From: a virus
Virus record (IMG/VR): IMGVR_UViG_3300043015_002666
Span: 1-64,000 of that record
Length of the DNA: 64,000 nucleotides
Reading direction: 5' to 3' (one strand)
In this document: positions 36,101-50,258 of the stretch, piece after piece
Position numbering within the stretch: the first letter of the stretch is position 1
Layout of the letters: each line of letters starts with the position of its first letter
Translations under genes and position numbers: made by a program
Notes under the pieces: model-generated
Database searches by the model: none
Seen by the model: the letters and a program-made list of their open reading frames with translations, nothing else
What the model was told of the DNA's origin: nothing

Positions 36101-39100
36101 CCGGCTACGATTGCAGATAACGTCGAAAGTATGGTGGATGCTGGCCTTGTTGCTGGCTCAAACAAGTACGCCAAAGAGGCGAATACGTACCGTGAAGCAC
36201 AGAAAAACGCCAAGTTTGAGCAAAAGCACGCAGATGAAGGTACCAAGAAGAAAGAAACCCTCCCTTTCTATGAAGATCTGTTATTTGACAGCGTGATTGT
36301 GGACGAAGGACACGATTTCCGTAACAGCTTCAAAATGGGCGGCTACGGCAACCGACTTGCTTACCTGCCAAACTCCGCACAAGCCAACCGCGCACTTGAT
36401 ATGCAGATGAAAAATAACCACATCAAGTCACGTAATGATGGCCGTGGTGTTTACATGCTGACAGCGACGCCAACGGTTAACAGCCCGGTTGATTTGTTCA
36501 ACATGCTGTCTCAGGTATTGCCACCAGAAACACTGGCAAAAATGGGCATTGTGGACGCGGACGACTTTATTCGTTTGTTTGGTCACACCGGCGAAACCGC
36601 AGTTACCAAGTTATCGGGCGAAGTGGATACGCGCGAGGCATTGCTAGGCTTCCAGAACCTAGACGCACTACGCAATATCTTTAAACGCTACACGACGGCC
36701 ATGTCGGCTGAAGACGTGCGATCTGACGTACACGTCCCTACTCTCAAAGCCATGACCAACGCGGTTGAAATGAGCGAAGAGCAAAAGGCCGTGTATGAAG
36801 AGCTCCGCCAGCGTGCCGACGCACTGAGTAACCCGGACGAACCTGAAAACCAAGATATCATCGAGCAGTACCCGAATGACTCTGTATTCAGCCTGATCCG
36901 CATGATGGACAAAGCGAACACGGATATGGACCTTTACCATGCCGTGATCACTTACCGATTCAAGAAAGGCGATAAAGACAAGCTTCAGGAAGCGATTGAT
37001 AAACTACCGAAAACTATCAAAGTTCGTCAGCCTAAGCTCGATGGCGAAGGCGAGCCGGTCCTTAATGCCGCCGGTCAAATGACCATGGAAGTGGTCGAGA
37101 TTGATGCTAATTACGATCTGGATACGGACGGCAAGTTCTTAACGCTCAAACTCGCGCAAGAACTGGACGGCCAATTCAGCAAGCTATGCAGTGACGCTGG
37201 TCTGAAATTCTCGCACCCGGTATCACCGAAATACGCCAAGTTCCTAGAAAACGCTAAGACGGCTTATCTCGCTGGTGGCAAGCAATTGGTATTCACGGAA
37301 GAGAAAACGCAGCACGTTAAATTGGCTCGTATCATAGCGGACTATATCGGCTGTGATATCTCAGAAATCGGGATCTTGAATAGTGACACGGTATCGGGCA
37401 AGAAAGGCTCTAAAGCGACGGAAGACGACGAAGAGGCGGGATTGGCTGCGCTTGAGAAAGCTTACAACTCAAGCCAATACAAATTCATGATCCTCAATAA
37501 AAAAGGTGAAGTGGGCGTGAACCTGCATCGTGGTACCACGGATATCCATCACCTTACTTTGCCTTGGACCCCATCTAGCTTGACTCAACGTAATGGCCGT
37601 GGCGCGCGTGTTGGCTCTAAAGCCTCTCAGGTGAACGTGCATTACTATGCCGGTAAGGGCTCGTTTGACCAATTCCGCATTGAAACCATCGAGCGCAAAG
37701 CGAAATGGATTCAAGACTTGTTCAATGGTGGCGAAAGCTATGTTGAGAACGGCAGTGCAGACGATGGCAGCGATACCGCTATCATGCTGGCCGCAGACCC
37801 GGAAGCAGCTAAGGCACGTATCGAGCAAGCACGCATCGAGCGCGAGCGTCGAATTAAACGTGAAGAGCAGCGACAGGCCGCTATCAACGTCAGCAAATAC
37901 GTTCAGGCTTCTATTGCTGCAAATACGGACCTAGAACCTATCCGCCAACGCTTAGCCGAGCTGGTGGATGAAATCGACAACCAGACCGAGAAGACCCGCG
38001 ACGCAGAAGAGCGCGCCAAAGGTGAAAAACGCAGTTCGTGGGAGTACAAGCGATTCAAAGATGAAAAAGATCGTCTGTTCACCCTGACGAAAGAGCGTGC
38101 GCAGCTTCAGAAGACCATCAAGCTTTCTGAAGAGGCCGGGAACACCATTAAACGCCTGAAATCCGTGGTTGAGTCTTCTATTCAAGATGGAACACTGGCC
38201 GGTTACGACGATATCACCACACACCCGGAGCTGTACGCGACTAAAAATGGCGTTGTTCTGCGTAAAGGCTACACGTATCACGTCAACGTACCAGCTTACT
38301 ACTGGAAAGAAGACAGCGAGCATGACGAATACATCCTAACGCTGGATGAATTCAACCGCGCTGAAGGGACCGCAACCGGGATCATCGTGAGCAAACCAAA
38401 CGAGGCTAACCCGACCGCCAGCGCAGGTACCCGCAAATCCAATATCGCGTTTGAGAAGTGGTTTAAGTTGGCTGAGGTGAATCATTCCGAGCAGGAACTT
38501 GCTTCACGCATTGCTAGCGGCATTCCGCTCAGTGCTATCCCAAGTACGATTGACCGTGAAACCTTCTTTGACTTCCACAAACGTGGTTTATTGGTGAAGT
38601 ACGGCCACTACACCAAGCCACTGGTTTACGTGGATAACGGTCGCGTAAAACAACTAGACAGTATGGAATTGCCTGACGGCGCATTCCTGATCTACCCGGA
38701 CTCAAGCGACCCATCGCTAATGAAAGCGTTAATCACGCAAGCCACCAGCGATCTAGAGCGCACCGGACGTGTAATGTTTGCTGACCATGGCACTATCCGT
38801 GCTCTAGTTGGCGAAGACTGGATGCAACAAGCGCAAGCCGGTGGTAACACTGCATCACAAAGTGACGTTGTAGCCGCTGTACAAAAAGCGGTTGAAGCGA
38901 CAGAGAGTGACGCGGAGAACCAGAGCGAGCTTAATGCCGGTCTGATTGAGGCCGCAGGGACTTACAGTGTTTCACGCATCAAGTTTGTGGAATGGGTACA
39001 AAATGAAGTAAACGCGATTAAGTGGGACGGCTATTCCAACCGTGACGAAATCAAGACACTCGTATCGGATGCCATGAAAGACTATCGCAGCTCGTTTAAG

Positions 39101-39859
39101 GCGCGTGGTGAAGTCAAACGACAGGAAACCATTGATAAACTGTTTGCAGACTATATCGCCCTACTCCAAAGCGATCCGAGCCGCAAAGAGCGTTTAATCA
39201 AACTGAATGAAGCTATGCAGCGTCGCAAACGTAGTCATGACTTTATGAATGACTTAGACGAACTCTACCCGGATGACAATTCCGCTATTGTGTCTGTTTA
39301 TGCTGACCTGACCATTACAGAGCGTCACTCTCAACTTGAGAACGGCGAGAAACTGCTAGCAACAAGCAGCTATTCACGTCGCAGTGCGCTAGATAAGTTT
39401 GATTCGGTTCGCTTGTCTTACCCGAACGTGTTCAGCCAGAAAATTGATGAACTGTACGGCGAGAAGGAAGTACCAGAGCCAGAGCCGGTGATTACCGAGC
39501 GCCAGCAAGAAAAGATTGAACAAATTCAATCGGTCGATTTTGACGGCATCGAGACACTTAAAACCGAACTGGCTAAGATTGGTATTACGGTCCAACCGGT
39601 GACACAAGACATTTCTTGGAAGTACAAGCGCAAGACTATCTCTATCAAAGCTTACGCGGGTATTGGCCTTCAAGATATCAATGAGAAGCAAGGCGCACTC
39701 GCTAAGCTACTTATGGGATATAAGAACAAGGACAACAAAGAGAAGTACGGCGCACGCTTCAATAGTGACCCTAGTGAAGACTTTGCCGGTGCGTGGTGGT
39801 TCATTGACTCGGAGAGTGATCTAGAATCATTCTACAACGACATTATGGCCGCTGCTTAA
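33200..39859 (+). CDS. giant N6-adenine methyltransferase + SNF2/DEAD-like helicase fusion (P1 DarB-like)
   Basis: 2219 aa. Methyltransferase motif I is EPASGVGVF and motif IV GNPPYG (33719-33730). Helicase motifs are GTGLGKT, DEGH (about 36304), LTATP and QRNGRGARVG. Confidence 0.9.
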   Translation: MLEKLRSAVLAVNSHSELLSVFNTYSISITPTSTKSANARVRANELAQSILKRVNGDFSQITDEEREQLRDYTGWGGIGGSTNEYYTPKWVASAVWDAMSAYGFTGGSILEPASGVGVFSETKPNNALMTSVEMDPTSSAINQILHPEDNVISSGFEAIAMDPNVGGFDVVTGNPPYGDRSSTIAQDGEYKDIKKNEQYFVLRSIDKAKPGGLIALVLPTQICDSSKLKKFRTRTAMKAEFLGAHRLPSGVFDGSSVVTDLVIWRKHSEEAAEQIANADPATLTESNVLWSDWINGKWFERDGLRFINGSQTIGFQGRKLVDRGNRSNEQIAKALSHKFESRIEWDQLDTVEPISEQYSDGDTIFHNGQQMEYDGGQWHAVQATEQQKTLDGATYGIEHLDSIGDATSTTKAMSQLTAEQAISLNDDYGHLCHGEFKTIVANIKKLPPRSREKAYKGILLGKQIEQYQNLLDLSRTDSDIALNDEEVATLRNKLAAKVMEMHMKHGRNLPTGIKSIDDKLAAHWMRYQGAVSKDGQLSDLLTGNLAVAQSEQYDMSRIDDVLHYFEHDRGMETVRLTDIRSVYLNEAAQLDDDQLINHLAGMENVAANRDGSFSPMRIATSGNVAGKKRNLTEAIAHTDNETLRANFMKQINTIEEKRDAIPINQIKMKLTDKWIPKHIMLEFLQDQGYTEFQLGRFVTDEDGFEDFVTDERGTTFTGYRWRDGKKVSSQGEEFERQIESYLNSGAVRGGSDNEQKAIVRERMRNLDRDFTNWCASSVHADELEGQYNDMFNGWIEPSYEGTDIDLEGVSGAIKFMPYQNSTIRKHAADGNGILALGTGLGKTLTALGLGQYLIQTNKASRIAYVMPKSVLDNWLFESDIFFGESNLGDKVFIGIDIERDDGNMVREVALDEDGKPRTDANGNAIKRPKVKVNTNGKKIAEQLHNLAQSSAKMVFMTKDVYNSIPLKPATIADNVESMVDAGLVAGSNKYAKEANTYREAQKNAKFEQKHADEGTKKKETLPFYEDLLFDSVIVDEGHDFRNSFKMGGYGNRLAYLPNSAQANRALDMQMKNNHIKSRNDGRGVYMLTATPTVNSPVDLFNMLSQVLPPETLAKMGIVDADDFIRLFGHTGETAVTKLSGEVDTREALLGFQNLDALRNIFKRYTTAMSAEDVRSDVHVPTLKAMTNAVEMSEEQKAVYEELRQRADALSNPDEPENQDIIEQYPNDSVFSLIRMMDKANTDMDLYHAVITYRFKKGDKDKLQEAIDKLPKTIKVRQPKLDGEGEPVLNAAGQMTMEVVEIDANYDLDTDGKFLTLKLAQELDGQFSKLCSDAGLKFSHPVSPKYAKFLENAKTAYLAGGKQLVFTEEKTQHVKLARIIADYIGCDISEIGILNSDTVSGKKGSKATEDDEEAGLAALEKAYNSSQYKFMILNKKGEVGVNLHRGTTDIHHLTLPWTPSSLTQRNGRGARVGSKASQVNVHYYAGKGSFDQFRIETIERKAKWIQDLFNGGESYVENGSADDGSDTAIMLAADPEAAKARIEQARIERERRIKREEQRQAAINVSKYVQASIAANTDLEPIRQRLAELVDEIDNQTEKTRDAEERAKGEKRSSWEYKRFKDEKDRLFTLTKERAQLQKTIKLSEEAGNTIKRLKSVVESSIQDGTLAGYDDITTHPELYATKNGVVLRKGYTYHVNVPAYYWKEDSEHDEYILTLDEFNRAEGTATGIIVSKPNEANPTASAGTRKSNIAFEKWFKLAEVNHSEQELASRIASGIPLSAIPSTIDRETFFDFHKRGLLVKYGHYTKPLVYVDNGRVKQLDSMELPDGAFLIYPDSSDPSLMKALITQATSDLERTGRVMFADHGTIRALVGEDWMQQAQAGGNTASQSDVVAAVQKAVEATESDAENQSELNAGLIEAAGTYSVSRIKFVEWVQNEVNAIKWDGYSNRDEIKTLVSDAMKDYRSSFKARGEVKRQETIDKLFADYIALLQSDPSRKERLIKLNEAMQRRKRSHDFMNDLDELYPDDNSAIVSVYADLTITERHSQLENGEKLLATSSYSRRSALDKFDSVRLSYPNVFSQKIDELYGEKEVPEPEPVITERQQEKIEQIQSVDFDGIETLKTELAKIGITVQPVTQDISWKYKRKTISIKAYAGIGLQDINEKQGALAKLLMGYKNKDNKEKYGARFNSDPSEDFAGAWWFIDSESDLESFYNDIMAAA

Positions 39860-39912: not shown

Positions 39913-40320
39913 ATGATTACTAAAGTTGAGTTACCGACGCCTGAAGCACTTAAGCCACTGCGTGACGAAGCGTTAGAAGGCACCACAGCGGACGAATGGA
40001 CGACTAAGCACTTATTGTCGATTACGTCATTACTGAGTGAGCATCCCCTCTCCTATCGCACGTATGGCCCTTACTGGTGGTCGATTAAGGCGCTATTGAA
40101 AGAGCGCGGTTTTGATTACGGCGAAGACGACGAACCGGTCACGCGTGAACACTTCAGCTACGCGGACCCGGTTGATTTGATTTGCGCGGCGTGGGCTTAT
40201 CAACAACACATCGTGGACATGCAGATCATTGGTTTTAACATTCATCCATTCACAATTGATGATGAACCGTTTGATTATTCCATCGAAGACACCGACCTAG
40301 AAGCAGCCCCATACCTTTAA
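39913..40320 (+). CDS. hypothetical acidic protein
   Basis: 135-aa ORF with a GAGGA Shine-Dalgarno. Confidence 0.7.
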   Translation: MITKVELPTPEALKPLRDEALEGTTADEWTTKHLLSITSLLSEHPLSYRTYGPYWWSIKALLKERGFDYGEDDEPVTREHFSYADPVDLICAAWAYQQHIVDMQIIGFNIHPFTIDDEPFDYSIEDTDLEAAPYL

Positions 40321-40406
40321 CCCAAACCGGGACCACCATTGGTCCCGGCTCATTTGCTCACACCCTTACCCACCGTTTTTGTGGATAACCCTTCTTACTT
40401 ATTTTT

Positions 40407-40666
40407 GATATCCGTAATGATATCTAAATTGATATCACAATAAATATCTAAAGTGATACCTTTCTAGGTATCCTTGTATATATCAATCAAGATATCTTTC
40501 TTGATACAAGTAACGGTATCCACTATGATACAACGATTGGTATCATTTTGAGTTTAAGTAACGATATCCATCTAGATATCACTAGGGATATCGAAGCTCA
40601 CACCAATGCAAACAACTACACACTAATATTGATATCAATCAAGATATCCCATTCGATATCTTTGAT
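40407..40666. repeat. upstream centromere-like array: GATATC-type hexamers on an exact 12-bp register
   Basis: Hexamers start at 40407+12n for n=0-11, as GATATC, GATACC, GGTATC, GATACA or TATATC. Further copies are at 40563, 40575 and 40587, and at 40631, 40643 and 40655. A DnaA box is at 40380-40388. Confidence 0.8.
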
Positions 40667-40687
40667 TGAGGTAAAAGGCTGATAAAA

Positions 40688-41473: not shown

Positions 41474-41873
41474 TCAAAAATTGTACGACGAACTATGCGA
41501 AAAGCGAGCTAGCGGAGTAGGGCTTAGGCCAGCGGAAAAAGCGGAACTCAGCAAGCTAGAAAAAGAGCTACGTCGCAGCAATAAGCCAGCTCAGGAAGAT
41601 AAACAGCCAGAAACAAACATTCTAGGCGCAAAAAATAACAGCGATAATGAGAAATCACCTAAGCTAATTCGCTTTGTTCAAGTGGAAAGACGCGCACTAA
41701 AAACGCGTCGTGAATCATTGTTAGCAGACTCGCCAGACGACGTTAAAGAGGCGTTAGGTTCAGTAAAAGCAGCCAGTGAAGATTTGCTGGTTAGAGCTGC
41801 CGTGCTAAGCCTATCAAGGCTTTCCGACAAAAAGCTCATTGCACTAATGAAAGAAGCTCAAATGAATTCGTGA
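41463..41873 (+). CDS. putative centromere-binding partition protein (small ParB/ParG-like)
   Basis: 136 aa, overlapping the parA stop by 11 nt, with an AGAGG Shine-Dalgarno. Called from position in a type-Ib-like par cassette. Confidence 0.55.
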   Translation: MSFNQKLYDELCEKRASGVGLRPAEKAELSKLEKELRRSNKPAQEDKQPETNILGAKNNSDNEKSPKLIRFVQVERRALKTRRESLLADSPDDVKEALGSVKAASEDLLVRAAVLSLSRLSDKKLIALMKEAQMNS

Positions 41874-42009
41874 TATCTGTGTTGATATCATTTCAGATAA
41901 CAAAAGAGATACCCAAAGCGGTATCTCTTTTTATATCTTATGTGATATTTAATTGGGTATCATTGATGATATATATACAGATATCAATTTAGATATCATT
42001 CAAGATATC
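41872..42009. repeat. downstream centromere-like array: 12 hexamers on a 12-bp register
   Basis: Hexamers start at 41872+12n for n=0-11 (GATATC and variants). The last copy overlaps the stop of the convergent 612-aa gene. Confidence 0.8.
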
Positions 42010-43838
42010 TTTCCTCGCTTGGCTGGCAACGCTGCCGCCGGGGAATAAATCCACTCCATGAAGTCGGCCATTAGCATAGGTACCACGGCACCCAACCCGG
42101 ACCAATCATCACTGTAGTTAGATAGGTAGGCTTGTTTCGCTTCAGACGGACTATGAAAACCGAGCATTACCTTGTGTTCATCAAACGCCCCGGAGTCGGG
42201 ATCGACCTGATTTATCACGTAAGCATACTTAGGCTTTTCATTCTCACCTAAGAACACATCCACTTCGTCACCGTCCGCACCTTGCGAGCCATAGATATAA
42301 CCGTAATGATGATTCATGCGGGTACGCCATTCCACGCCGTTCGCGTCGGTTCCTTTGCGGTCACTGCCTTTTGGATTCTCAATTTCAACCGGCAAACCAG
42401 CAAAGCGCAATGACCCGGTTTGGTAGTCATTGTTTTCTAGCTGTTCCTGCGTGGGTTCTGGCAAGTCGTTTTGTGGGGATGTGGCCGCTTTGTTAGCGAG
42501 CTCATCAATACGTGCTGACTCAAACATAAAGCCACCTTGCCCGGTTTGCTGCTCTTCCAAGCGTTGGCCGACTTGCGAGAGCACTTCAATTAACGTCACC
42601 TCACCACCACCAAACATATCACCAATGGCGCTACCATCTTTGCGGAGCTGTTCATTGATAACGTTCGCCAGTTCTTTAAAGGCTTCAGCCATGCGCTTGG
42701 CACTGCGATTGTTCGCAGAGATAAACCGGGCGAGGGCTTCCACTTCAGGATCGTTGTCACCAAACAACCCCGATTGCGCGATCAGTTCGTTAATGTCCTG
42801 TCCGCTGTCTTTTGCCTGTCTGACAAGCTCAGTCGCACTCACAAGCGAGTTAAGCGCCTTATCGGCTAATGACTCATCTTGCGACTCAACACCGCTTACA
42901 ATGCCATCTGACACCGATTTATGGACCACACCGTCTAGGTACTGCATTTCTACAAACTGACTGGCTGAACTGTTGAGCGCATTCAGAATGTTTCGAATTT
43001 CTGGATCAGGCTCTTCCGCCACCAGCTTAACCAGTCTGTCATTCTTGTACGCCTTGGCAAAGATGGCGTTTTGCATGCGATCTAGTAACTGGCGGGTAGG
43101 GCGACCGTCAGACGTCACCAGACCGGCGGCGGACGTATCACCAAGCGCACGCATGAACGATTGTACAAATCCATCATTACTGCGCGCTAGCAAGCTGCCA
43201 GACTCGGACGGCGAGAGTAGGGCCATCATTTTATCGTCCATGACTTCAGCATCGACCCAAGCCGTTTCTGACGCGCTCATTTGCTGCAAGTCAGAAAGGT
43301 TAGAATCACGCGCAAACGTGGCCCGGTCCATTTCGGTTAATCGTTCACGCACTAACACCGGCTTATCCATTCCTTTCACGACGTCAGAATCAAAGCCAAA
43401 GCGTTGAGCGTTATCAATTAAATACTGGCGATAATCATCACCCTTACTGGTGCTGTAGGCTTTCAAAATAGCCATGGTTCGACCGTTGCCAGACTCCACC
43501 ACCAGATCGGGACCAACAATAGGCGCACCATGCGAACTAAGGCCGCTATCAGTGAGCTGTGCCGGTCGCAGGTTCCCGGCCATCTTGTCAATCTGCATTA
43601 TCGAAGCTTTACGCGTGCGGTCGCGTGGCTGTAATTCTTCCGGGAACGCGGGGTTAATTTTGCCATCTGGCGTATTAGATGGAATAAGTTGATCCGCCTC
43701 GACCAACTTAAACGCGGTTTGGACCTCATCACCTTTGGCCGTGACAACAAAACTATCCCGGCCTTTCTGACTGGCACCGTCAAACAGTGCCAGTAGTTCA
43801 GAGAATGATTTAGCCCGTTGAATTGAGGCTAGAATCAT
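42000..43838 (-). CDS. ParB/Srx-like N-terminal domain fused to an inorganic-pyrophosphatase-like C-terminal domain
   Basis: N-terminus: QPRDRTR...VVESGNGRTMAILKAY. C-terminus: VEIENPKGS..RK, HHYGYIYGSQGADGDEVDVFLG and DPDSGAFDEHKVMLGF, which parallel the E. coli Ppa active-site blocks. Confidence 0.7.
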   Translation of the reverse strand: MILASIQRAKSFSELLALFDGASQKGRDSFVVTAKGDEVQTAFKLVEADQLIPSNTPDGKINPAFPEELQPRDRTRKASIMQIDKMAGNLRPAQLTDSGLSSHGAPIVGPDLVVESGNGRTMAILKAYSTSKGDDYRQYLIDNAQRFGFDSDVVKGMDKPVLVRERLTEMDRATFARDSNLSDLQQMSASETAWVDAEVMDDKMMALLSPSESGSLLARSNDGFVQSFMRALGDTSAAGLVTSDGRPTRQLLDRMQNAIFAKAYKNDRLVKLVAEEPDPEIRNILNALNSSASQFVEMQYLDGVVHKSVSDGIVSGVESQDESLADKALNSLVSATELVRQAKDSGQDINELIAQSGLFGDNDPEVEALARFISANNRSAKRMAEAFKELANVINEQLRKDGSAIGDMFGGGEVTLIEVLSQVGQRLEEQQTGQGGFMFESARIDELANKAATSPQNDLPEPTQEQLENNDYQTGSLRFAGLPVEIENPKGSDRKGTDANGVEWRTRMNHHYGYIYGSQGADGDEVDVFLGENEKPKYAYVINQVDPDSGAFDEHKVMLGFHSPSEAKQAYLSNYSDDWSGLGAVVPMLMADFMEWIYSPAAALPAKRGKIS

Positions 43839-44512
43839 GCGGCTACCTCTTCAGCAATGGCAAGCTCGCTTTGGTGATACTCAAACCATTTAATGGTACC
43901 GGTCTTTAACTCATCAAGGCTCAACTTATCCTTAAGCAATTCAAGTACGCGACGGAATGCGCTTTTATCAACCCCGGTAAACTCACCTAACTTAAATTTC
44001 TCTTCAATCGTCAGCTCTTTATCAGTTTCAGGCTCGTACTTCTTGATAAGCTTCATTGCCTTGGAGCGTTGCGCTCTATTCCACGTCCACGAATCATTCC
44101 CCTGATTTTCGCTTTCTTTACCGGCTTTTTCTTCCCAATAACTATACCCGCGTGATAAACGGCCTTTATAACCGAACTGGATGCCATGCTTAGAACGGAA
44201 AACCACATAGCCATCTTTTTGTTCTAGGACTGAATAATCCGGGTAAAAAGCCATCTCATATTCGTACCAGTTTGGGTAACTCAGAACGACGTCAAACGCC
44301 TTGATCTTGTCGGAACGACCCATTGCCTTAAAGTCGTCGAGAGAAATCACGTCCGCTTTGGGAGTGTTGGACGCTTTGAGTTTTTTCAGGATGGCAATGC
44401 GCTCTTTACCCTTGGCGATACGGTCCTTTAATGACAGTGAGCCATCGCGCAATTCTTTGATTAGGGAATTTAACTGACTGCTCAACCCTAGCTTTGTTTT
44501 TAAATCCATCAT
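43835..44512 (-). CDS. hypothetical protein
   Basis: 225-aa ORF with an ATGA overlap. Confidence 0.7.
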   Translation of the reverse strand: MMDLKTKLGLSSQLNSLIKELRDGSLSLKDRIAKGKERIAILKKLKASNTPKADVISLDDFKAMGRSDKIKAFDVVLSYPNWYEYEMAFYPDYSVLEQKDGYVVFRSKHGIQFGYKGRLSRGYSYWEEKAGKESENQGNDSWTWNRAQRSKAMKLIKKYEPETDKELTIEEKFKLGEFTGVDKSAFRRVLELLKDKLSLDELKTGTIKWFEYHQSELAIAEEVAA

Positions 44513-44742
44513 GACACCTCTACCACGAACCCAAACATGGTCGCCTTAAACATAAAATCTGCCGGGGAAACTTCCGGGCCTTCTGGCATGTGGCCGTATT
44601 CGTTCGGGATATCATCCCAAGGAAAACGCATACCCAAATCATCAAACTCTGGCTCTGCCGGTTCGTTCATATCGTAGCTATCGTAAAACGACACAAAACA
44701 AGTCCGCTCATCGCTACTGGTTAGCTTTAGTCGAATCATCAC
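44509..44742 (-). CDS. hypothetical acidic protein
   Basis: 77-aa ORF in the same operon. Confidence 0.6.
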   Translation of the reverse strand: MMIRLKLTSSDERTCFVSFYDSYDMNEPAEPEFDDLGMRFPWDDIPNEYGHMPEGPEVSPADFMFKATMFGFVVEVS

Positions 44743-45934
44743 TACCTCTTGCCTTGTCGTGTAAGTGAGCTATTACGCCCACAATAAATTCAAAGTGTTC
44801 TGGATCGTTCACGGCCAATCGCCCTCTTGATTCGTTATCAATCAGAGATTCAACCCCCATCGTGATCACTTCTGTAGCCGTGGCACCGTCGATATCAAAC
44901 GGATCGGCATGGTTGTAAAACTTGGTGGCGTAGGGCGTGAATGCGCCGTCATCAATCGTGTATTCACGTTCTGAGTAGTTAATCCCACGCTTAGATCCCC
45001 ACTTATCCTGATAGATATCACGCAGGGAACGGATACCATTAGATTTAGCTAGGCGGTCCTTTAGAAAGCGTTTCGACATTTCGAGCACTTCCGGGTGATC
45101 GTACTCAAGCGAATGGGCCAGCTCATGCCATAGCACACGCTTGGTAAAACTCTCGCCCACACTGATTGAACGCTCACTATTGCGGTAATCTTGGCGCGCT
45201 TTGCGCACCGTAAAGTTGATAGGTTCAGCAGTGAACGCCACCAGCGAATACAGCTCACCGGCTGCGGTAATGAGCTTTTGTTTAGCTCTGCCACCGCCCC
45301 CGGTAAAGTCGCCTTTGCGCTGGCGAGACAAGCGATTGTTTGCCAGCTTATCAAAGCCTGATTGCATCGCTTTCCTTTGGCCGTCCTTAAGACTGACCGG
45401 AGAGTTAAACATTAACTCATTCACTACACCGGATAGCTGGTGGCCCACTTCCTTGTATTTCTCCCGGTGAATATCCCGGACCTCTTCATAAATGCCAAAA
45501 GTGTGGTTATCGTTTGGTTGCGCCTTGTCAGCCCCCACCAGTCGATACACATCGTAAGCTTGCGCATGCTGAGCTATAGCATCGAGCGTGCGTGCTTTCT
45601 TTGGCTTACTCCATCTTTGGGCCTCAATGAGATCCGTGATTCTAGCATTGCCTTTAATGGTTTCGCTTACTTCACTCTTAAGGTTTCGGTCTATCTCAAC
45701 ACCAAAAGAGGCCAGCACATCCCGGCCCTTTTGAGTGACAGCTTTCAGCTCGGTTACTTCGCTATCGGATGGATTCACGCCTTTTCGCCCTGTCAGCTCT
45801 GACAAAATATCAAGACGTTCCTTGGTTAAAGCCATGCGATCAAGAAGAGGCACGTTGGCCCCTTCTCGTTTCAGGTAAACCAATATCTCCACGGCGCGAC
45901 CGGCTTTTTTAACGCGTTCGCTAAGTGGGACCAT
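44714..45934 (-). CDS. zincin-like metallopeptidase domain protein
   Basis: 406 aa with HExxH in LWHELAHSLEY. Confidence 0.65.
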   Translation of the reverse strand: MVPLSERVKKAGRAVEILVYLKREGANVPLLDRMALTKERLDILSELTGRKGVNPSDSEVTELKAVTQKGRDVLASFGVEIDRNLKSEVSETIKGNARITDLIEAQRWSKPKKARTLDAIAQHAQAYDVYRLVGADKAQPNDNHTFGIYEEVRDIHREKYKEVGHQLSGVVNELMFNSPVSLKDGQRKAMQSGFDKLANNRLSRQRKGDFTGGGGRAKQKLITAAGELYSLVAFTAEPINFTVRKARQDYRNSERSISVGESFTKRVLWHELAHSLEYDHPEVLEMSKRFLKDRLAKSNGIRSLRDIYQDKWGSKRGINYSEREYTIDDGAFTPYATKFYNHADPFDIDGATATEVITMGVESLIDNESRGRLAVNDPEHFEFIVGVIAHLHDKARGSDDSTKANQ

Positions 45935-48900
45935 TACACTGTCACCTCCGATTGAAGTTCAACCAAGCGAGCAAACGCGGCTTCTAGTAAGTCGTTATGC
46001 TCGTCTAAGGTACCGGCTGATTCAAAGCTGGCATAAGCAGCCTCAATGTCGGCTTGGTACTGCTCAAGAATCTCAATCGTTGCGTCACCGGAGTAATCAC
46101 GGATAGTGCGTAGCGCATCAGTGTGCACCTGCTCTTCTGAGTTAGTTTCCACTGGTTCAGGCTCCTGTACCGGCTCTGGTTGCGGCTCTGGCTGTTGTTT
46201 TGGTTTATCGTCCGTGTAAGTCTCAATAAACGGTTTCTGACCGCCATTGTGCTCTATACGGATACGCTGAGCGATCTTCATCGCATCATTAATGCTGTAG
46301 CCGTTAACTAGCAACGTGTCGTAGATATCATCTTGACCTTGGTAGTTCATTGAGCCGTCATCATTGAACCACTTAACCGTTGATAAGCCTTTTAGCATGG
46401 CTTTGAACTTCTCGGTTTCAGCGTCCAGCACGTTTTCTACCGGCGGCTCGTTAATACCTTCAATGTAAACACCCGCGTTTACAATCTCTTCCTTACCAAC
46501 CGAGAAAACTTCGTCAGTGGTACCCGCCTCTCTTAACGTGACTCTGGATGCGCCAATATTCACAATCTTGTATTGACCATCGCCCAACGCGATAATGTCA
46601 CCAACCTTGTTGACCTTGTTCGTATTTGTTTCTTCCTCTGGATCGTACCACTGTGCTTCGTGAAGCAATTTAACAAAGTCAGCTTTGCTAATTTCGTTCT
46701 TAAGCATCGCTTCAAAGTTAACGCCTACATGCTTATTCTCGCCTTGGGCCATACCAGCGTTAGAAATCGTTCTGATATCGTAGTCAGACAAATCCAAGTA
46801 GTGAGCAAACAGTTTTTCGCCCTTAGATTTACTGATTGGGTAGCCTTGCTCTACCGCGCTATCAATCATTTCTTTGTACAGGTTGTAAACGCCGTACACG
46901 TAGCCGTTGTACTTAATCTTGTCTTTTGTCTTAGGAACGATATCTTTGAAATCTTTAGTTCCATAAACAAAATTCTCGTCAATGTACTCATCCAGTTTTT
47001 TACTCGTTGCGCCCTTCATGGCTTCGAACTTATCAGGCTCATCGTTAACGCTCATGTAGGCTTTACGGGCCGCATCACTCAATTTCTCTTTTGCATCGTC
47101 GTCCATAAGGTCAAACGCTCGGAGGAGTTCTTGAGGATTTTTCTGACCAACATAGGACCACGACTTACCAAAAAGACCCGGAGTGATAATGTCATATTCG
47201 CGCTGGTTAAAGTCGTACACTTCACCGTTCACTTCAACCACCGGCGCGTTAACGTCGTAACCTTCATTGGCATCTAACCAATACCCAATATCGCTCGCCC
47301 ATTTCTTTTTATGTCTTGCACTGGTGGACGCATTCAGAAGGTCGGCTCTGATTGTATCTGGCACATTGTGAATAAGCGTTTCTGACAGCATTAATTTGCC
47401 ATCTTTAAGTGCTAACGCACCAACCTCAACCGATTTAACTAGCGCACGGATTGCATCAGCAAAACTTGTGCTGTTGTCTTTATGTTGTTTGGTTTCTTCG
47501 CCGCTGTCGTCTAGGCCGGTAATGGCCGGTAAACCTGCCGCCACACGTAGATCGTTAAAACCTTCTTCTTCATCCGTGCCAGCAAAGTGATTAATGGCAC
47601 CCGGATCTTGCAACTCTCCAACGTAAGCCTCTAAAAGAGCGGCCTTAACCTGATCCCAGCCTGATAAACTTTCAGCTCCGGTAATAGGTGAACCTTCGTC
47701 ATAAGTAAGATTAAAAGAGCCATCTTCTTTGTAATGAATATCGTAAGAGCCATAATTACTGCTTGAATCAATCTTGAATAAAGGCGATTCAACGTTAACG
47801 GATAAATACATTTCTTTATCTAGGTTTAGATCTGCTTGATCTAAGCCATGCTTATCAATATTCCAACCTTCAGGCATACGCTTGCCTTTCACTAACGCTC
47901 TTAGCTCTGCAAGGGCTTTCTCGTTCTTAACGCGGACGTCAGAGACAAGAACGTCAATATAACCGGCCTCCTCTTCAATCATGGTTGGTGTCACCAGTGA
48001 TAGGGACGCATTCCAAACCTTAAACGTATCCGGGATGCTTTTACGACGTTCAAACTCATCTTGCTTGCGCAATAGCTTGCTAAACGCTTGCTTAAAGCTA
48101 GATGCAGCTACTTGGAATTTAATGTCTTCCATCTGCTTGGTTGTGATACGATCCGTATTGTTCTCGTCCATCCAGTCATACAGGAATTGACGCACGATAG
48201 TTTCCGCCGAATCTTCGTCGGCCAGTGAAAAATCTTCACCTGACTCTGATAGCGGTCTAAGCTCAAAGTCGCTCACTTGTTTAGGCGTTAACGCTTCTGC
48301 ATACGCGATTGCACCATGGCGAATTGCACGGCCAGCGTTAGGGAACTTAACTTCCGCCTCTTCCGCGTTGAGCACCTTAACAACTTCCGCATCACTTGGC
48401 GTATTCCCCATACCAGCCGGGCGCAATTGCAGGCCGTACCAATGCAGACCGCTTGTGGTTTCTTCTTCCTGTTCGACTACGCCACCAGCTTCGGGTACGT
48501 CGTTGACTTCACCAAGTTTCCAGATTGAATGGCGCTTAGTGAATGCTGGCTTAGTGGCAACTTTGTTGTACTCCGCAATCATGGTTAGCACGTTGTTAAC
48601 TTGCGGCTGGTGGCCTTGACGTTGCAAGGTCTTCAGCTTACCGGCAAGATTGCTCACAAACAGGGAACGGTCAAAACCGGCAAGGTTTGGATCATTGCTA
48701 TCAATGCCAGAGATATTCATAAGAGAAGAAAGCAAGCGAACGTTACCATCTTTGACAACGATATCTGCCGCTGCTTTAAACGCTGGCGAACCGAGCAATT
48801 TACTGTCGGTCGTTTCTGGCTTGTTGTTATCCGGGTTTTCACCGGTACCCGGCACAAACTTATTGGCTAACTGCTTGCGTAGCTCTTCCTGAATGTCGTT

Positions 48901-49641
48901 CTGGTTGGCGATCTGCTTATTGAGCGTATCAATGCGCTTTTGCTTCTTAGCGTTAGCCTCTTCGATGCTATCAAGCTGATCCGACTGAGTATTAATGTTC
49001 GCTTCAATCTCTTCTAGCTGCGCTTGTGTCGCTTCAAGCTCTTGCTTTTGTTGTGCGTTTTGCTCTTGTCTGGCTGCGAATTTCTCCGAGTTCTTTTCAA
49101 CTAAGTTACTCAGCGCAAGGGCCATTTGGGAACGTGAAATATCACGGCCACCTGAAGGCGCGACCGCGTGCGTTACGTCACGACTGTTCACCAAGAATCG
49201 GAACGCGATCAGCGTATCGTCAGCATTGATTTTTAATGGATCATTATCCGGGGCATGAAATACCAGTGACACGCTCTGACCGTCAGAAAGATTCAGCTTT
49301 GCCACTTGAACCGCAACCGAACCGCTTTTACGTGGCTTGCTGATCTCACGCCCTGTTACTTCAATGCCAACCGGCTTAAGGTGTTTGTTTAGCGTATTCG
49401 AAAAACCGATAACGCGAGTCTCTAAACGGGCCGCTTTGGCTTTGATGGCTTCAAGCATCATTACCGGCATAGCGTCAAACTGAGACAAGTACGCTTGCTC
49501 AATGTCGGCCACTTCGACCGACTCAAGCATTAGTTGGTGTTCGTCCGCTTGAAAGATGGCACTTACGGCCTCTTCACTTAACGACTTGGCAAAGTGGTCT
49601 ACGCGGTCCACCACTCGAATTTGATTGGTCTGCAAAAACAT
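45934..49641 (-). CDS. large (1235 aa) putative virion/injected protein
   Basis: Long ORF with a coiled-coil segment. Its N-terminal roughly 200 aa is paralogous to the upstream 205-aa protein. Confidence 0.8.
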   Translation of the reverse strand: MFLQTNQIRVVDRVDHFAKSLSEEAVSAIFQADEHQLMLESVEVADIEQAYLSQFDAMPVMMLEAIKAKAARLETRVIGFSNTLNKHLKPVGIEVTGREISKPRKSGSVAVQVAKLNLSDGQSVSLVFHAPDNDPLKINADDTLIAFRFLVNSRDVTHAVAPSGGRDISRSQMALALSNLVEKNSEKFAARQEQNAQQKQELEATQAQLEEIEANINTQSDQLDSIEEANAKKQKRIDTLNKQIANQNDIQEELRKQLANKFVPGTGENPDNNKPETTDSKLLGSPAFKAAADIVVKDGNVRLLSSLMNISGIDSNDPNLAGFDRSLFVSNLAGKLKTLQRQGHQPQVNNVLTMIAEYNKVATKPAFTKRHSIWKLGEVNDVPEAGGVVEQEEETTSGLHWYGLQLRPAGMGNTPSDAEVVKVLNAEEAEVKFPNAGRAIRHGAIAYAEALTPKQVSDFELRPLSESGEDFSLADEDSAETIVRQFLYDWMDENNTDRITTKQMEDIKFQVAASSFKQAFSKLLRKQDEFERRKSIPDTFKVWNASLSLVTPTMIEEEAGYIDVLVSDVRVKNEKALAELRALVKGKRMPEGWNIDKHGLDQADLNLDKEMYLSVNVESPLFKIDSSSNYGSYDIHYKEDGSFNLTYDEGSPITGAESLSGWDQVKAALLEAYVGELQDPGAINHFAGTDEEEGFNDLRVAAGLPAITGLDDSGEETKQHKDNSTSFADAIRALVKSVEVGALALKDGKLMLSETLIHNVPDTIRADLLNASTSARHKKKWASDIGYWLDANEGYDVNAPVVEVNGEVYDFNQREYDIITPGLFGKSWSYVGQKNPQELLRAFDLMDDDAKEKLSDAARKAYMSVNDEPDKFEAMKGATSKKLDEYIDENFVYGTKDFKDIVPKTKDKIKYNGYVYGVYNLYKEMIDSAVEQGYPISKSKGEKLFAHYLDLSDYDIRTISNAGMAQGENKHVGVNFEAMLKNEISKADFVKLLHEAQWYDPEEETNTNKVNKVGDIIALGDGQYKIVNIGASRVTLREAGTTDEVFSVGKEEIVNAGVYIEGINEPPVENVLDAETEKFKAMLKGLSTVKWFNDDGSMNYQGQDDIYDTLLVNGYSINDAMKIAQRIRIEHNGGQKPFIETYTDDKPKQQPEPQPEPVQEPEPVETNSEEQVHTDALRTIRDYSGDATIEILEQYQADIEAAYASFESAGTLDEHNDLLEAAFARLVELQSEVTV

Positions 49642-50258
49642 TACTGCGCTTCCTCAATTTGTTTTTCTAGATCTTTGGTTTCGGCTTTCTCCGCTGCGAG
49701 CTCTGCCGTTAATCGCTCAATCTCAGAGTCCATAGAGGCGCTTTGAGTGTTTGCAGCTTCCAGTGAGGACGTGATAGCACTCTGATTCTCTTGCAATGCG
49801 GACAGACTTGCTTTGGCTTCGTCTAATCGCTTGCTTACACTGCGCGTTAAGGGCTTGCTGGTTGAAGTGTCTTTTACGGCCTTGTTAGCTTTGCGCGCTT
49901 GCTGCTTATCAAATTTGGCTTGGTTGCGGTTAAGCATGTTTGTCATGTCTTTAGCCAGTTCACGTTCGCTGGTGGCGTCTGGCAATGGCTGCTTAGTCGA
50001 ATTAAGCTGTAGCTGGTAAATGTCGCCTTCAGAGCCGATAAATAGCGTCATGGTCTGGCCGTTCTCAAAAAAGAACTTGGCTTGCTTCACGCGTTGCGAA
50101 TCTTTGCGCTTAGGCTTGTTGTCGGCCTGAATGTCGGTCACTGGCTCACCGGCACGTTTTAACGCGTCCACCAGCGACTTTAAGCCACGTTCGGTCACGT
50201 TATCGTAATCAACGACAACGTAACCGTGATTTTGTCTCGATGCGAATAGTCTACTCAA
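49641..50258 (-). CDS. hypothetical protein, paralogous to the N-terminus of the 1235-aa protein
   Basis: Compare KPKRKDSQRVKQAKFFFENGQTMTLF...KFDKQQ with KPRKSGSVAVQVAKLNLSDGQSVSLVF...KFAARQ. Confidence 0.75.
   Translation of the reverse strand: MSRLFASRQNHGYVVVDYDNVTERGLKSLVDALKRAGEPVTDIQADNKPKRKDSQRVKQAKFFFENGQTMTLFIGSEGDIYQLQLNSTKQPLPDATSERELAKDMTNMLNRNQAKFDKQQARKANKAVKDTSTSKPLTRSVSKRLDEAKASLSALQENQSAITSSLEAANTQSASMDSEIERLTAELAAEKAETKDLEKQIEEAQ

What the first reader, a model, noticed from the sequence alone, without database searches (positions are those of the whole stretch)
42000..43838. ParB/Srx-like domain fused to an inorganic-pyrophosphatase-like domain
The N-terminal third carries a ParB-superfamily signature (QPRDRTR...APIVGPDLVVESGNGRTMAILKAY).

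The last roughly 120 aa reproduce the family-I pyrophosphatase active-site blocks:
- VEIENPKGS..RK, compared with IEIPAN..KYE
- HHYGYIYGSQGADGDEVDV, compared with CNYGYINHTLSLDGDPVDV
- DPDSGAFDEHK, compared with DEAGEDAK

ParB-family domains bind or hydrolyse nucleotides (CTP), or act as nucleases. Coupling one to a PPi-hydrolysing module, inside an operon of putative injected proteins, suggests nucleotide-processing chemistry directed at host defence or signalling nucleotides.
Basis: partly seen in the sequence, partly recalled or inferred. Interest (0 to 1): 0.65.

Follow-up and report, generated by a model that had tools for sequence, protein, structure and literature searches.

The report
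P1-type DdrB with pyrophosphatase-like tail
This gene is the DdrB (capsid-internal "defence against restriction") protein of a Vibrio-type P1-like phage-plasmid, in which P1's C-terminal peptidase is replaced by a catalogued phage pyrophosphatase-like module, so it is a new member of a known protein family.

Summary
ORF 42000..43838 (-), 612 aa, carries Pfam ddrB-ParB (aa 35-166, E 2e-39) and Pfam InPase (aa 465-597, E 9e-52).

Both domains were defined by Iyer et al. 2017 (PMC5512222), as was their use in phage "polyvalent proteins". That paper also proposed the idea that the InPase attacks PPi or infection-induced nucleotides.

Residues 9-441 are 60% identical to phage P1 DdrB, a head-internal Dar protein. 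The window holds the whole Dar set: Hdf, DarA, DdrB, DarB and Ulx, plus portal and Pro in P1 order.

The InPase replaces the region that in P1 DdrB leads to a metallopeptidase. That peptidase is here a separate upstream ORF (44714..45934). Some relatives have ParB+InPase+peptidase in one chain.

The InPase keeps the metal-binding DxDxxD, Glu, Tyr, Lys and an acidic pair. I found no conserved equivalents of R43, Y141 or K142 of E. coli pyrophosphatase.

The InPase is a promiscuous module: about 12,000 cluster representatives, mostly inside giant proteins. A dedicated chemical coupling between ParB and PPase is therefore not supported. No activity has been tested for either domain.

Verdict: new member of a known kind, low to moderate interest.

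The parts
42000..43838 (-). ddrB-like gene, 612 aa: ParB-like domain + helical core + InPase
   Evidence: ORF. Pfam domains. aa 9-441 are 60% identical to P1 DdrB, E 3e-175.
43764..43838 (-). N-terminal leader helix (aa 1-25, ...AKSFSELLALF...), possible capsid-targeting segment
   Evidence: An amphipathic motif recurs at the N-terminus of DdrB homologues. Its resemblance to the DarB N-terminus is not significant (E 0.056). The role is inferred.
43341..43736 (-). DdrB-type ParB/Srx-like domain (aa 35-166), with invariant LQPRDR (aa 69-74) and ESGNGR (aa 115-120)
   Evidence: Pfam PF18763, E 2e-39. Invariant columns. In the model a strand at 113-116 is followed by a helix at 118-129. Weak Foldseek hits to ParB-N.
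42516..43340 (-). All-helical DdrB core domain (aa 167-441), shared with P1 DdrB, no known family
   Evidence: 60% identity to P1 DdrB up to ...FES at aa 441. Helical in the AF2 model. No Pfam hit.
42447..42515 (-). Linker and pre-InPase helices (aa 442-464), conserved with stand-alone InPase proteins
   Evidence: Stand-alone InPase proteins share the D..AN.AATSP.N..PEPT.AQ extension. pLDDT is low at aa 432-441.
42048..42446 (-). InPase (family-I-pyrophosphatase-like OB-fold) domain, aa 465-597. The DxDxxD motif lies at 42258-42275.
   Evidence: Pfam PF18823, E 8.7e-52. pLDDT 86-93. PPase hits by profile and by fold. Invariant R494, Y512, D522, D524, D527, Q544, D553, E554, K556 and Y571. DGDEVD confirmed by translation.
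41902..41931 (.). 12-bp-stem hairpin flanked by an A-run and a T-run: likely bidirectional terminator between the dar operon and the convergent par operon
   Evidence: Terminator scan. Sequence.
43835..44512 (-). 225-aa ORF with a DdrA-like N-terminal leader, translationally coupled to ddrB by a 4-nt overlap
   Evidence: ORF. Leader HMM E 1.1e-8. Leader and tail are conserved in the V. parahaemolyticus plasmid.
44509..44742 (-). 77-aa ORF of the operon, function unknown
   Evidence: ORF. A 76-aa ORF occupies the same position in L002 and L004.
44714..45934 (-). 406-aa ORF homologous to the C-terminal metallopeptidase part of P1 DdrB (WHELAHSLEY HExxH motif)
   Evidence: BLASTP to P1 DdrB aa 643-993, E 1e-11, with HExxH aligned. 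phrog_2299 positions 641-994. 43% identical ORF in plasmid CP194407.1. DdrA-like leader E 2e-4.
45934..49641 (-). DarA-like protein, 1235 aa
   Evidence: Pfam DarA_N E 2.7e-29 and DarA_C E 7e-9. phrog_1926.
49641..50258 (-). Hdf-like protein, 205 aa
   Evidence: phrog_1620, E 2e-44. PF18788 in L002.
33200..39859 (+). DarB-like methyltransferase-helicase, 2219 aa
   Evidence: phrog_1685 with E reported as 0. Pfam Eco57I methylase and SNF2.
39913..40320 (+). Ulx-like protein, 135 aa
   Evidence: phrog_1629, E 1.1e-30.

Best explanation
The gene encodes the DdrB component of a P1-type Dar (defence against restriction) system in a P1-like phage-plasmid of Vibrionaceae.

Inferred by homology to P1: the protein is made late from the hdf-darA-...-ddrB operon. 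It is loaded into the procapsid after Hdf and DarA, helps load DarB, and is ejected into the next host together with the DNA.

Domain roles:
- The N-terminal ParB/Srx-like domain plus the helical core (aa 1-441) form the conserved DdrB chassis.
- The C-terminal InPase module (aa ~442-605) is an interchangeable cargo of the "polyvalent protein" kind.

I predict the InPase is an active, divalent-metal-dependent phosphoanhydride hydrolase. It keeps the metal and nucleophile machinery and the electrophilic-phosphate site of family I pyrophosphatases. Conserved equivalents of the leaving-group-site residues R43, Y141 and K142 were not found.

Most likely substrate and timing (inferred, not shown): PPi, or the terminal pyrophosphate of a nucleotide-type substrate, hydrolysed in the freshly infected cell. 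The enzyme would act independently of the ParB-like domain.
For: Shown here:
- Domain assignments.
- 60% identity to P1 DdrB over aa 9-441.
- A complete Dar gene set in P1-like synteny: Hdf, DarA, DarB, Ulx, portal and Pro (P1 map).
- Tightly overlapping ORFs from hdf to ddrB, ending at a terminator-like hairpin.
- The same architecture and synteny in about 85-96 kb Vibrio contigs and plasmids.
- The InPase catalytic set is invariant across stand-alone and fused homologues of 33-60% identity: near-invariant E487, then R494, Y512, D522, D524, D527, D553, E554 and K556.
- PPases are the only solved relatives by profile and by fold.
- Modularity: relatives carry no C-terminal module, a peptidase region, or InPase plus peptidase.
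- InPase is also fused to a portal C-terminus (9b41) and sits inside giant proteins.

From the literature:
- P1 DdrB is a head protein (39 peptides) that aids DarB incorporation (PMC9024508).
[quoted passage not shown] Packaging order is Hdf/DarA first, then DdrA, DdrB, DarB and Ulx (PMC12810830).
- Both domains and the injected-effector concept come from Iyer et al. 2017.
Against: - No biochemical data exist for any DdrB-ParB or polyvalent-protein InPase domain. I found none in the library.
- Virion packaging of this particular protein is inferred only from P1.
- The equivalence of D553/E554 to D97/D102 is ambiguous.
- The absence of R43, Y141 and K142 equivalents rests on weak alignments and on domain length, not on a 3-D superposition. 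Other invariant residues (Q544, Y571, W504) could substitute for them.
- Foldseek E-values to PPases are modest (about 1e-2).
- In P1, ddrB is non-essential, and its own contribution to anti-restriction is indirect.
Confidence: 0.75

Rival explanations
1. The ParB-like and InPase domains are a dedicated two-step nucleotide-processing machine. For example, the ParB-like domain would release PPi or a pyrophosphorylated product, and the InPase would then hydrolyse it. The target would be host immune signalling nucleotides.
For: - Both domains sit in one polypeptide, and the pairing is conserved in roughly 50 clusters from Vibrionaceae elements.
- The ParB/Srx motifs LQPRDR and ESGNGR and the PPase catalytic residues are all invariant.
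- Iyer et al. proposed nucleotide-type substrates for InPase.
Against: - The DdrB chassis occurs without InPase in P1 and in many relatives.
- InPase occurs without DdrB-ParB in most sampled proteins and on portals.
- The domains are separated by about 275 aa of helical domain plus a low-confidence linker, and pTM is 0.43.
- From general knowledge, characterised ParB/Srx NTPases release Pi rather than PPi.
Confidence: 0.1
2. The InPase-like domain is catalytically dead, or is used structurally. It might act as a packaging, oligomerisation or capsid-docking module, with its resemblance to pyrophosphatase being a relic.
For: - It is fused to the inner (C-terminal) end of a portal protein, where it is disordered in cryo-EM.
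- It falls below the Pfam threshold for true pyrophosphatases: PF00719 scores 12 bits against a cutoff of 23.5.
- Conserved equivalents of three substrate-binding residues of Ppa (R43, Y141, K142) were not found.
Against: - The residues that are invariant over 33-60% identical homologues are the metal-binding and catalytic ones: DxDxxD, E487, Y512, D553, E554 and K556. This is not expected for a scaffold.
- The domain also exists as small stand-alone proteins of 150-250 aa.
Confidence: 0.1
3. The ParB-like protein is the centromere-binding partner of the neighbouring ParA and serves plasmid partition of the prophage.
For: - The gene ends 127 bp from the convergent parA-orf138 operon.
- GATATC iterons overlap its stop codon.
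- It carries a ParB-superfamily domain.
Against: - It is on the opposite strand, inside the late dar operon.
- It is 60% identical to P1 DdrB, not to P1 ParB.
- It has no detectable HTH or ParB C-terminal domain.
- ParA already has its own downstream 138-aa partner ORF, flanked by iterons.
- In the V. parahaemolyticus relative a genuine P1-type ParB (PF08775) sits next to ParA, in addition to the DdrB-InPase gene.
Confidence: 0.03

Closest known systems
Phage P1 DdrB (P1_gp022, 995 aa), Dar anti-restriction system
   Same: - aa 9-441 are 60% identical, covering the ParB-like domain and the helical core.
- Same operon (hdf-darA-...-ddrB) and the same set of Dar partners.
- Expected to be a capsid-internal, co-ejected protein.
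   Different: - After the ...FES junction (aa 441), P1 has about 200 aa of unknown sequence plus a C-terminal HExxH metallopeptidase.
- The window protein has an InPase module there instead.
- The peptidase homologue is a separate ORF two genes upstream.
- No clear DdrA orthologue is present. Only a DdrA-like leader is found, on two ORFs.
InPase domain of phage polyvalent proteins (Pfam PF18823; Iyer et al. 2017), e.g. the C-terminus of Pbunavirus portal gp19 (PDB 9b41 sequence)
   Same: - Strong profile match (E 9e-52).
- About 50% identity to the portal-fused copy over 124 aa.
- Same invariant residues.
- Virion-associated context.
   Different: - Here it is fused to a DdrB chassis rather than to a portal or a giant multi-domain protein.
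- The upstream GNYKKG motif is degenerate in this clade (NDYQTG).
Family I soluble inorganic pyrophosphatase (E. coli Ppa, M. tuberculosis Rv3628; Pfam PF00719)
   Same: - Similar OB-fold core: the top-50 Foldseek hits are all PPases.
- The motif YG(Y/F)I..T.G.DGD..D aligns residue for residue.
- Counterparts of E20, Y55, D65, D67, D70 and K104, plus an acidic pair for D97/D102.
   Different: - Only 15-20% identity, and below the PF00719 threshold.
- About 40 aa shorter. There is a 10-residue deletion before the YGY strand, and the segment carrying Y141/K142 appears to be missing.
- R43 is not conserved.
- The substrate may therefore differ.
ParB/Srx superfamily N-terminal domains (chromosomal and plasmid ParB CTPases, sulfiredoxin, pNOB8 ParB-N 5k5d)
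   Same: - A strand followed by a Gly-x-x-Arg helix cap (ESGNGR), plus an upstream (N)P...QPR motif.
- The best, though weak, structural matches are ParB-N domains.
   Different: - No HTH or dimerisation domain, and no sequence-level match to ParB.
- A lineage-specific extra helix with invariant Tyr (Y128, Y136).
- Biochemical activity is unknown.

Membership tests
DdrB-like ParB domain (Pfam PF18763) / P1 DdrB orthologue | Profile match above the curated threshold | tested here: met
   134.9 bits against a 27.6 cutoff, E 2e-39. 60% identity to P1 DdrB aa 10-442.
DdrB-like ParB domain (Pfam PF18763) / P1 DdrB orthologue | Highly conserved active-site Arg, and a conserved Tyr in the family-specific helix (Iyer et al. 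2017) | tested here: met
   R120 in ESGNGR, plus Y128 and Y136, are invariant in 34-, 29- and 7-sequence alignments reaching 41% identity.
DdrB-like ParB domain (Pfam PF18763) / P1 DdrB orthologue | Late-gene or virion context next to darA/hdf | tested here: met
   Located in the hdf-darA-...-ddrB operon. Portal, Pro, DarB and Ulx are nearby.
DdrB-like ParB domain (Pfam PF18763) / P1 DdrB orthologue | Incorporated into the capsid and needed for DarB loading | not testable with these tools
   Known only for P1 (PMC9024508).
ParB/Srx superfamily | ParB-N alpha+beta fold | tested here: inconclusive
   AF2 model of the N-terminus has pLDDT 81. The top 3 PDB hits are pNOB8 ParB-N, but at E 0.09-0.25 and TM about 0.3. 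Weak BFVD hits go to ParB/Spo0J/Srx-named proteins. There is no HMM or hhalign hit.
ParB/Srx superfamily | GxxR motif at a strand-helix junction | tested here: met
   Strand at 113-116, then G117-N-G-R120 at the start of helix 118-129.
ParB/Srx superfamily | NTP binding or hydrolysis, or DNase activity | not testable with these tools
   Needs biochemistry.
InPase domain of polyvalent proteins (Pfam PF18823) | Profile match above the curated threshold | tested here: met
   175 bits against a 26.8 cutoff, covering 133 of 135 profile positions.
InPase domain of polyvalent proteins (Pfam PF18823) | Conserved acidic residues for two-metal catalysis | tested here: met
   D522, D524, D527, D553 and E554 are invariant, and E487 is nearly invariant.
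InPase domain of polyvalent proteins (Pfam PF18823) | Lacks an insert present in all solved cellular PPases | tested here: met
   A 10-residue gap relative to M. tuberculosis PPase lies between the second and third strand region and the YGY strand. The domain is 135 aa against about 170 aa.
Family I inorganic pyrophosphatase (Ppa, Pfam PF00719) | Profile match above the curated threshold | tested here: not met
   12 bits against a 23.5 cutoff, E 0.18, covering only 28 residues.
Family I inorganic pyrophosphatase (Ppa, Pfam PF00719) | Full active-site set: E20, K29, E31, R43, Y55, D65, D67, D70, D97, D102, K104, Y141, K142 (E. coli numbering, from general knowledge) | tested here: not met
   Counterparts were found for E20, K29 (as R494), Y55, D65, D67, D70, K104 and an acidic pair. 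No conserved counterpart was found for R43, Y141 or K142, and E31 is unclear. These are alignment-based results, not a 3-D superposition.
Family I inorganic pyrophosphatase (Ppa, Pfam PF00719) | OB-fold core similar to solved PPases | tested here: met
   All 50 best Foldseek PDB hits are PPases, with prob up to 1.0, target TM 0.41-0.45 and E about 1e-2.
Polyvalent protein (Iyer et al. 2017) | Two or more effector-type domains in one virion- or transfer-associated polypeptide, often with a zincin peptidase | tested here: met
   DdrB-ParB plus InPase in a late operon. The peptidase is encoded as a neighbouring ORF and is fused in homologues P0036 and P0046.
P1-type Dar system | Presence of Hdf, DarA, DdrA, DdrB, DarB and Ulx | tested here: met
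   Five of the six are clearly present. DdrA is represented only by a DdrA-like N-terminal leader on the 225-aa and 406-aa ORFs.

The most novel reading that the evidence does not exclude
The polyvalent-protein InPase keeps the metal centre and the electrophilic-phosphate site of pyrophosphatase, but conserved equivalents of the leaving-group pocket residues were not found. It may therefore not be a PPi-ase at all. It could be a virion-delivered hydrolase for a nucleotide-linked pyrophosphate, such as an alarmone, an immune second messenger or its NTP precursor, or a modified (d)NTP. It would arrive with the DNA and blunt nucleotide-based defence before any phage gene is expressed. DdrB would serve as one of many delivery chassis for it.
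Probability: 0.15. Interest if true: 0.7.

Novelty: new member of a known kind. Interest (0 to 1): 0.27.

Why it matters
**What is already known.** Both domains are in Pfam, and the concept was published in 2017. The annotation itself (a DdrB-type polyvalent protein carrying an InPase module) therefore adds little.

**What is still open.**
- No InPase or DdrB-ParB domain has ever been assayed. Yet InPase has about 12,000 cluster representatives, mostly in giant injected phage proteins.
- This 612-aa protein, with its 150-250-aa stand-alone relatives, is one of the smallest natural contexts of the module. It is linked to the genetically tractable P1-type Dar system, which makes it a convenient entry point for finding the substrate.

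**What the comparison clarifies.**
- DdrB is a chassis with an exchangeable C-terminal slot, with the junction at ...FES.
- Dar-operon proteins share a DdrA-like N-terminal leader. This bears on the open question of how P1 targets cargo to its capsid.

Tried and rejected
- **Near-identical DNA.** Megablast of 40000-50000 found nothing in the phage collection. In the plasmid collection it found only fragments of about 100 bp in Vibrio plasmids. The element itself is not in those collections.
- **ParB homology by sequence.**
  - A 7-sequence DdrB-ParB profile against PDB found no ParB.
  - hhalign against B. subtilis Spo0J gave no meaningful alignment.
  - The superfamily link therefore rests on Pfam, on Iyer et al. 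and on weak fold hits.
- **PPase alignment.** hhalign of the InPase profile against the E. coli Ppa sequence alone aligned only the 26-residue YGYI...DGDxVDV block. A global alignment was ambiguous around D97/D102.
- **NCBIfam.** It gave no name for the protein or its neighbours.
- **Shared DarB/DdrB capsid-targeting motif (S.SELL..F).** The leader HMM hits window DarB only at E 0.056 and does not hit P1 DarB. This is not significant.
- **Antisense iddB-like ORF.** It is conserved, but 27% (window) and 8% (P1) of synonymous shuffles keep the frame open. It is probably a by-product.
- **ParB-like protein as the partition protein.** Rejected; see the rival explanations.
- **Literature.** A search for experimental work on phage InPase found none.
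Full report
**1. Observation**

The window has an ATG-initiated ORF at 42000..43838 on the minus strand, 612 aa.

Pfam assigns two domains, both far above their curated thresholds:
- ddrB-ParB (PF18763), aa 35-166, E 2e-39.
- InPase, "Inorganic Pyrophosphatase" (PF18823), aa 465-597, E 8.7e-52.

**2. What the element is**

The neighbourhood is a phage P1-type late region.
- On the same strand, with overlapping start and stop codons, lie:
  - an Hdf homologue (49641..50258, phrog_1620, E 2e-44);
  - a DarA homologue (45934..49641, Pfam DarA_N and DarA_C);
  - a 406-aa ORF, a 77-aa ORF and a 225-aa ORF;
  - the gene in question.
- On the other strand lie:
  - a 2219-aa DarB-like methyltransferase-helicase (33200..39859);
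  - an Ulx homologue (39913..40320).
- Upstream lie the portal and Pro homologues, in the P1 arrangement (P1 map).

Residues 9-441 of the protein are 60% identical to P1 DdrB (E 3e-175).

Where the element sits in public data:
- There is no near-identical DNA in the phage or plasmid collections.
- The exact protein occurs on Logan-assembled contigs of up to 86 kb.
- Proteins of 62-86% identity with the same two Pfam domains occur on 85-96 kb Vibrio contigs and plasmids.
- One of these is V. parahaemolyticus plasmid CP194407.1, which has the same gene order.

The window is therefore a P1-like phage-plasmid of Vibrionaceae, and the gene is its ddrB.

**3. Anatomy of the protein**

AlphaFold2 with a 34-sequence alignment gave mean pLDDT 77 and pTM 0.43. 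The low pTM means the arrangement of domains relative to each other is not defined. The model shows these parts:
- A short N-terminal helical leader (aa 1-25).
- An alpha+beta domain (aa ~28-166).
- A long all-helical domain (aa ~170-430).
- A low-confidence linker (aa 432-441).
- Two short helices, followed by a beta-rich domain (aa 475-605, pLDDT 86-93).

Homology to P1 DdrB stops exactly at ...FES (aa 441). From there on, the sequence is shared with stand-alone InPase proteins of 150-250 aa, including the pre-domain segment D..AN.AATSP.N..PEPT.AQ.

**4. The C-terminal slot is exchangeable**

The following variants occur among relatives:
- P1 DdrB continues after FES with about 200 aa of unknown sequence and a C-terminal HExxH metallopeptidase.
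- Many relatives of about 440-500 aa stop shortly after FES.
- The Vibrionaceae group has InPase.
- P0036 and P0046 have ParB, helical core, InPase and metallopeptidase in one 1017-1031-aa chain.
- Others have an LPD3-type insertion in the helical domain, or N-terminal extensions.

In the window the peptidase is not lost.
- The 406-aa ORF at 44714..45934 aligns with P1 DdrB aa 643-993.
- The HExxH motifs superpose: WHELAHSLEY against WHELGHHLEY (E 1e-11; phrog_2299 positions 641-994).
- A 43%-identical ORF sits at the same place in the V. parahaemolyticus plasmid.

Relative to P1, this DdrB is therefore both a fission and a module-swap variant.

**5. Is the C-terminal domain pyrophosphatase-like, and is it likely active?**

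*Sequence and fold evidence for the relationship:*
- The only solved-structure sequence match is the C-terminus of the Pseudomonas phage Pa193 portal gp19 (9b41, E 3e-30). That part of the portal (aa 529-765) has no cryo-EM density (PMC11042391). No structure of this domain type therefore exists.
- A profile of 25 InPase domains hits cellular family I PPases: M. tuberculosis 4z70 at E 1.8e-4, with E. coli and others more weakly.
- hhalign against the verified E. coli Ppa sequence aligns the YGYI..T...DGDxVDV block (prob 90%).
- All 50 best Foldseek PDB hits of the model are family I PPases (prob up to 1.0, target TM 0.41-0.45, E about 1e-2).
- Pfam's own Pyrophosphatase model is not reached: 12 bits against a cutoff of 23.5.

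*Conservation.* Across fused and stand-alone homologues of 33-60% identity:
- Invariant positions: R494, Y512, G513, G520, D522, D524, D527, Q544, D553, E554, K556, Y571.
- Nearly invariant: E487 and W504.

*Mapping to E. coli PPase.* This uses mature numbering. The residue roles are recalled from the PPase literature and were not tested here.

| InPase residue | E. coli PPase residue | Basis |
|---|---|---|
| E487 | E20 | alignment |
| R494 | K29 | tentative |
| Y512 | Y55 | alignment |
| D522, D524, D527 | D65, D67, D70 | alignment |
| K556 | K104 | alignment |
| D553-E554 pair | D97/D102 | exact register ambiguous |

I found no conserved counterpart of R43. The roughly 40-aa region that carries Y141 and K142 appears to be absent.

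*Inference.*
- The two-metal centre, the general base and the electrophilic-phosphate site are kept.
- Conserved equivalents of the leaving-group pocket residues were not found.
- This fits an active phosphoanhydride hydrolase whose leaving group need not be orthophosphate.
- It rests on alignments, not on a 3-D superposition. I could not read the model coordinates.

**6. Is the N-terminal domain ParB/Srx-like?**

*Evidence for:*
- The family assignment is solid.
- The motifs LQPRDR (aa 69-74) and ESGNGR (aa 115-120), with Y128 and Y136, are invariant down to 41% identity. This includes copies embedded in 3,000-aa virion proteins of Aeromonas and Pseudoalteromonas phages and in an epsilon15-gp16-like protein of an Alcaligenes phage.
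- In the model, GNGR caps a helix directly after a strand. That is the ParB/Srx arrangement.

*Independent tests of the superfamily link are weak:*
- The three best PDB fold hits are pNOB8 ParB-N, at E 0.09-0.25.
- BFVD gives a few low-significance hits to proteins named ParB, Spo0J or sulfiredoxin.
- Profile and hhalign searches find no ParB.

I rate the fold claim as plausible but not established here.

**7. Mechanism**

*Known for P1, from the literature:*
- The six Dar proteins are capsid-internal, and DdrB was detected with 39 peptides (PMC9024508).
- They are loaded in the order Hdf/DarA, then DdrA, DdrB, DarB and Ulx, and are co-ejected with the DNA (PMC12810830).
- DdrB aids DarB incorporation (PMC9024508).
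- ddrB is non-essential on a permissive host (PMC10695390).

*By homology, the window protein most likely behaves the same way.* The ParB-like plus helical chassis provides the Dar function. The InPase is an extra enzymatic cargo, delivered into the cell at the moment of DNA entry.

*Published proposals for the cargo's role* (Iyer et al. 2017):
- Hydrolysing PPi to favour early polymerase and nucleotidyl-transfer reactions.
- Destroying a nucleotide-type molecule made in response to infection.

Nothing here discriminates between them. The missing leaving-group residues mildly favour a non-PPi substrate.

*Chemical coupling between the two domains is unlikely.*
- Each domain occurs widely without the other.
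- The InPase profile finds 12,212 cluster representatives at E <= 1e-3 and 8,733 at E <= 1e-30. Most of the best 150 hits lie inside proteins of 1,000-6,000 aa.
- Ten sampled members carried GNAT, PBECR3, LPD5 or no recognisable partner. None carried DdrB-ParB.

**8. Comparison with what is known, and novelty**

Both domain families, the term "polyvalent protein", the association with a zincin peptidase, the portal fusion and the functional hypotheses are all in Iyer et al. 2017. The protein meets the tested criteria of these groups:
- PF18763 (ddrB-ParB).
- PF18823 (InPase).
- The polyvalent-protein class.
- The P1 Dar system.

It does not meet the criteria for a canonical Ppa. It is a new member of a known kind. 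The two-domain DdrB-plus-InPase form is common in Vibrionaceae P1-like elements.

I found no experimental characterisation of either domain. That is the remaining interest.

**9. Side observations**

- **DdrA-like leader.**
  - A roughly 45-aa N-terminal leader heads some DdrB homologues.
  - An HMM of that leader was searched against 300 sequences (all window ORFs plus the P1 Dar proteins). It recognises only the 225-aa ORF (E 1e-8), the 406-aa peptidase ORF (E 2e-4) and P1 DdrA (E 8e-4).
  - This suggests a shared docking or targeting element in Dar-operon proteins. A 2022 P1 study reported not finding one by BLAST.
- **Putative partition centromere.**
  - The parA-orf138 operon is flanked by GATATC repeats spaced 12 bp apart, a likely partition centromere.
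  - The window has 53 copies against 10.4 expected.
  - One set overlaps the ddrB stop codon.
- **Terminator.** A hairpin at 41902-41931 looks like a bidirectional terminator.
- **Antisense ORF.**
  - An ORF antisense to ddrB is 61% identical to P1 IddB and is also open in the V. parahaemolyticus plasmid.
  - Synonymous shuffling keeps it open in 27% (window) and 8% (P1) of trials.
  - It is probably a by-product of the sense sequence.

Noticed in passing
window 40407-40660 and 41872-42009: GATATC hexamers at 12-bp spacing cluster on both sides of the parA (40688-41473) and 138-aa ORF (41457-41873) operon. The window has 53 copies against 10.4 expected. This is probably the partition centromere (iterons) of the phage-plasmid. 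The last three copies overlap the stop codon of the ddrB-like gene.
   Followed up: partly
window 43835-44512 (-), 44714-45934 (-); P1 ddrA (L001 8596-8961): A roughly 45-aa N-terminal helical leader is shared by four groups: the 225-aa ORF, the 406-aa peptidase ORF, P1 DdrA, and the N-terminal extensions of some DdrB homologues (P0032, P0045, P0048, P0059 and others). An HMM of the leader hits only the two window ORFs and P1 DdrA among 300 sequences (E 1e-8, 2e-4 and 8e-4). It may be a common Dar docking or capsid-targeting element.
   Followed up: partly
window 44714-45934 (-): The metallopeptidase part of P1 DdrB (HExxH) is encoded here as a separate gene upstream of ddrB. This is conserved at 43% identity in V. 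parahaemolyticus plasmid CP194407.1. Other relatives (P0036, P0046) have ParB, InPase and peptidase in one chain.
   Followed up: yes
window 42973-43407 (+), antisense to ddrB codons 144-289: This ORF is 61% identical to P1 IddB, the annotated gene internal to ddrB. It is also open in the V. parahaemolyticus plasmid. Synonymous-codon shuffles keep it open in 27% (window) and 8% (P1) of trials, so it is likely a by-product of the conserved sense sequence.
   Followed up: yes
window 41902-41931: A perfect 12-bp-stem hairpin flanked by an A-run and a T-run lies between the convergent par and dar operons. It is a likely bidirectional intrinsic terminator.
   Followed up: no
window 43764-43838 (-) and 33200-33280 (+): The N-termini of the DdrB-like and DarB-like proteins share S-x-S-E-L-L-x-x-F (AKSFSELLALF and NSHSELLSVF). 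In P1, the DarB N-terminal 30 aa are a capsid-targeting signal. The leader HMM gives only E 0.056 for window DarB and no hit to P1 DarB, so the similarity is not significant.
   Followed up: partly
window 45934-49641 (-): The DarA homologue is 1235 aa, against 639 aa in P1 and 1698 aa in the V. parahaemolyticus plasmid. The extra roughly 770 C-terminal residues have no family hit. This may be another variable cargo region of the Dar system.
   Followed up: no
homologues P0004, P0030, P0059: Some DdrB homologues carry an insertion of about 230 aa in a loop of the helical core, at the window protein's aa ~320. In P0059 it is annotated PF18798, a large polyvalent-protein-associated domain. This marks a second permissive insertion site in the chassis.
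   Followed up: no
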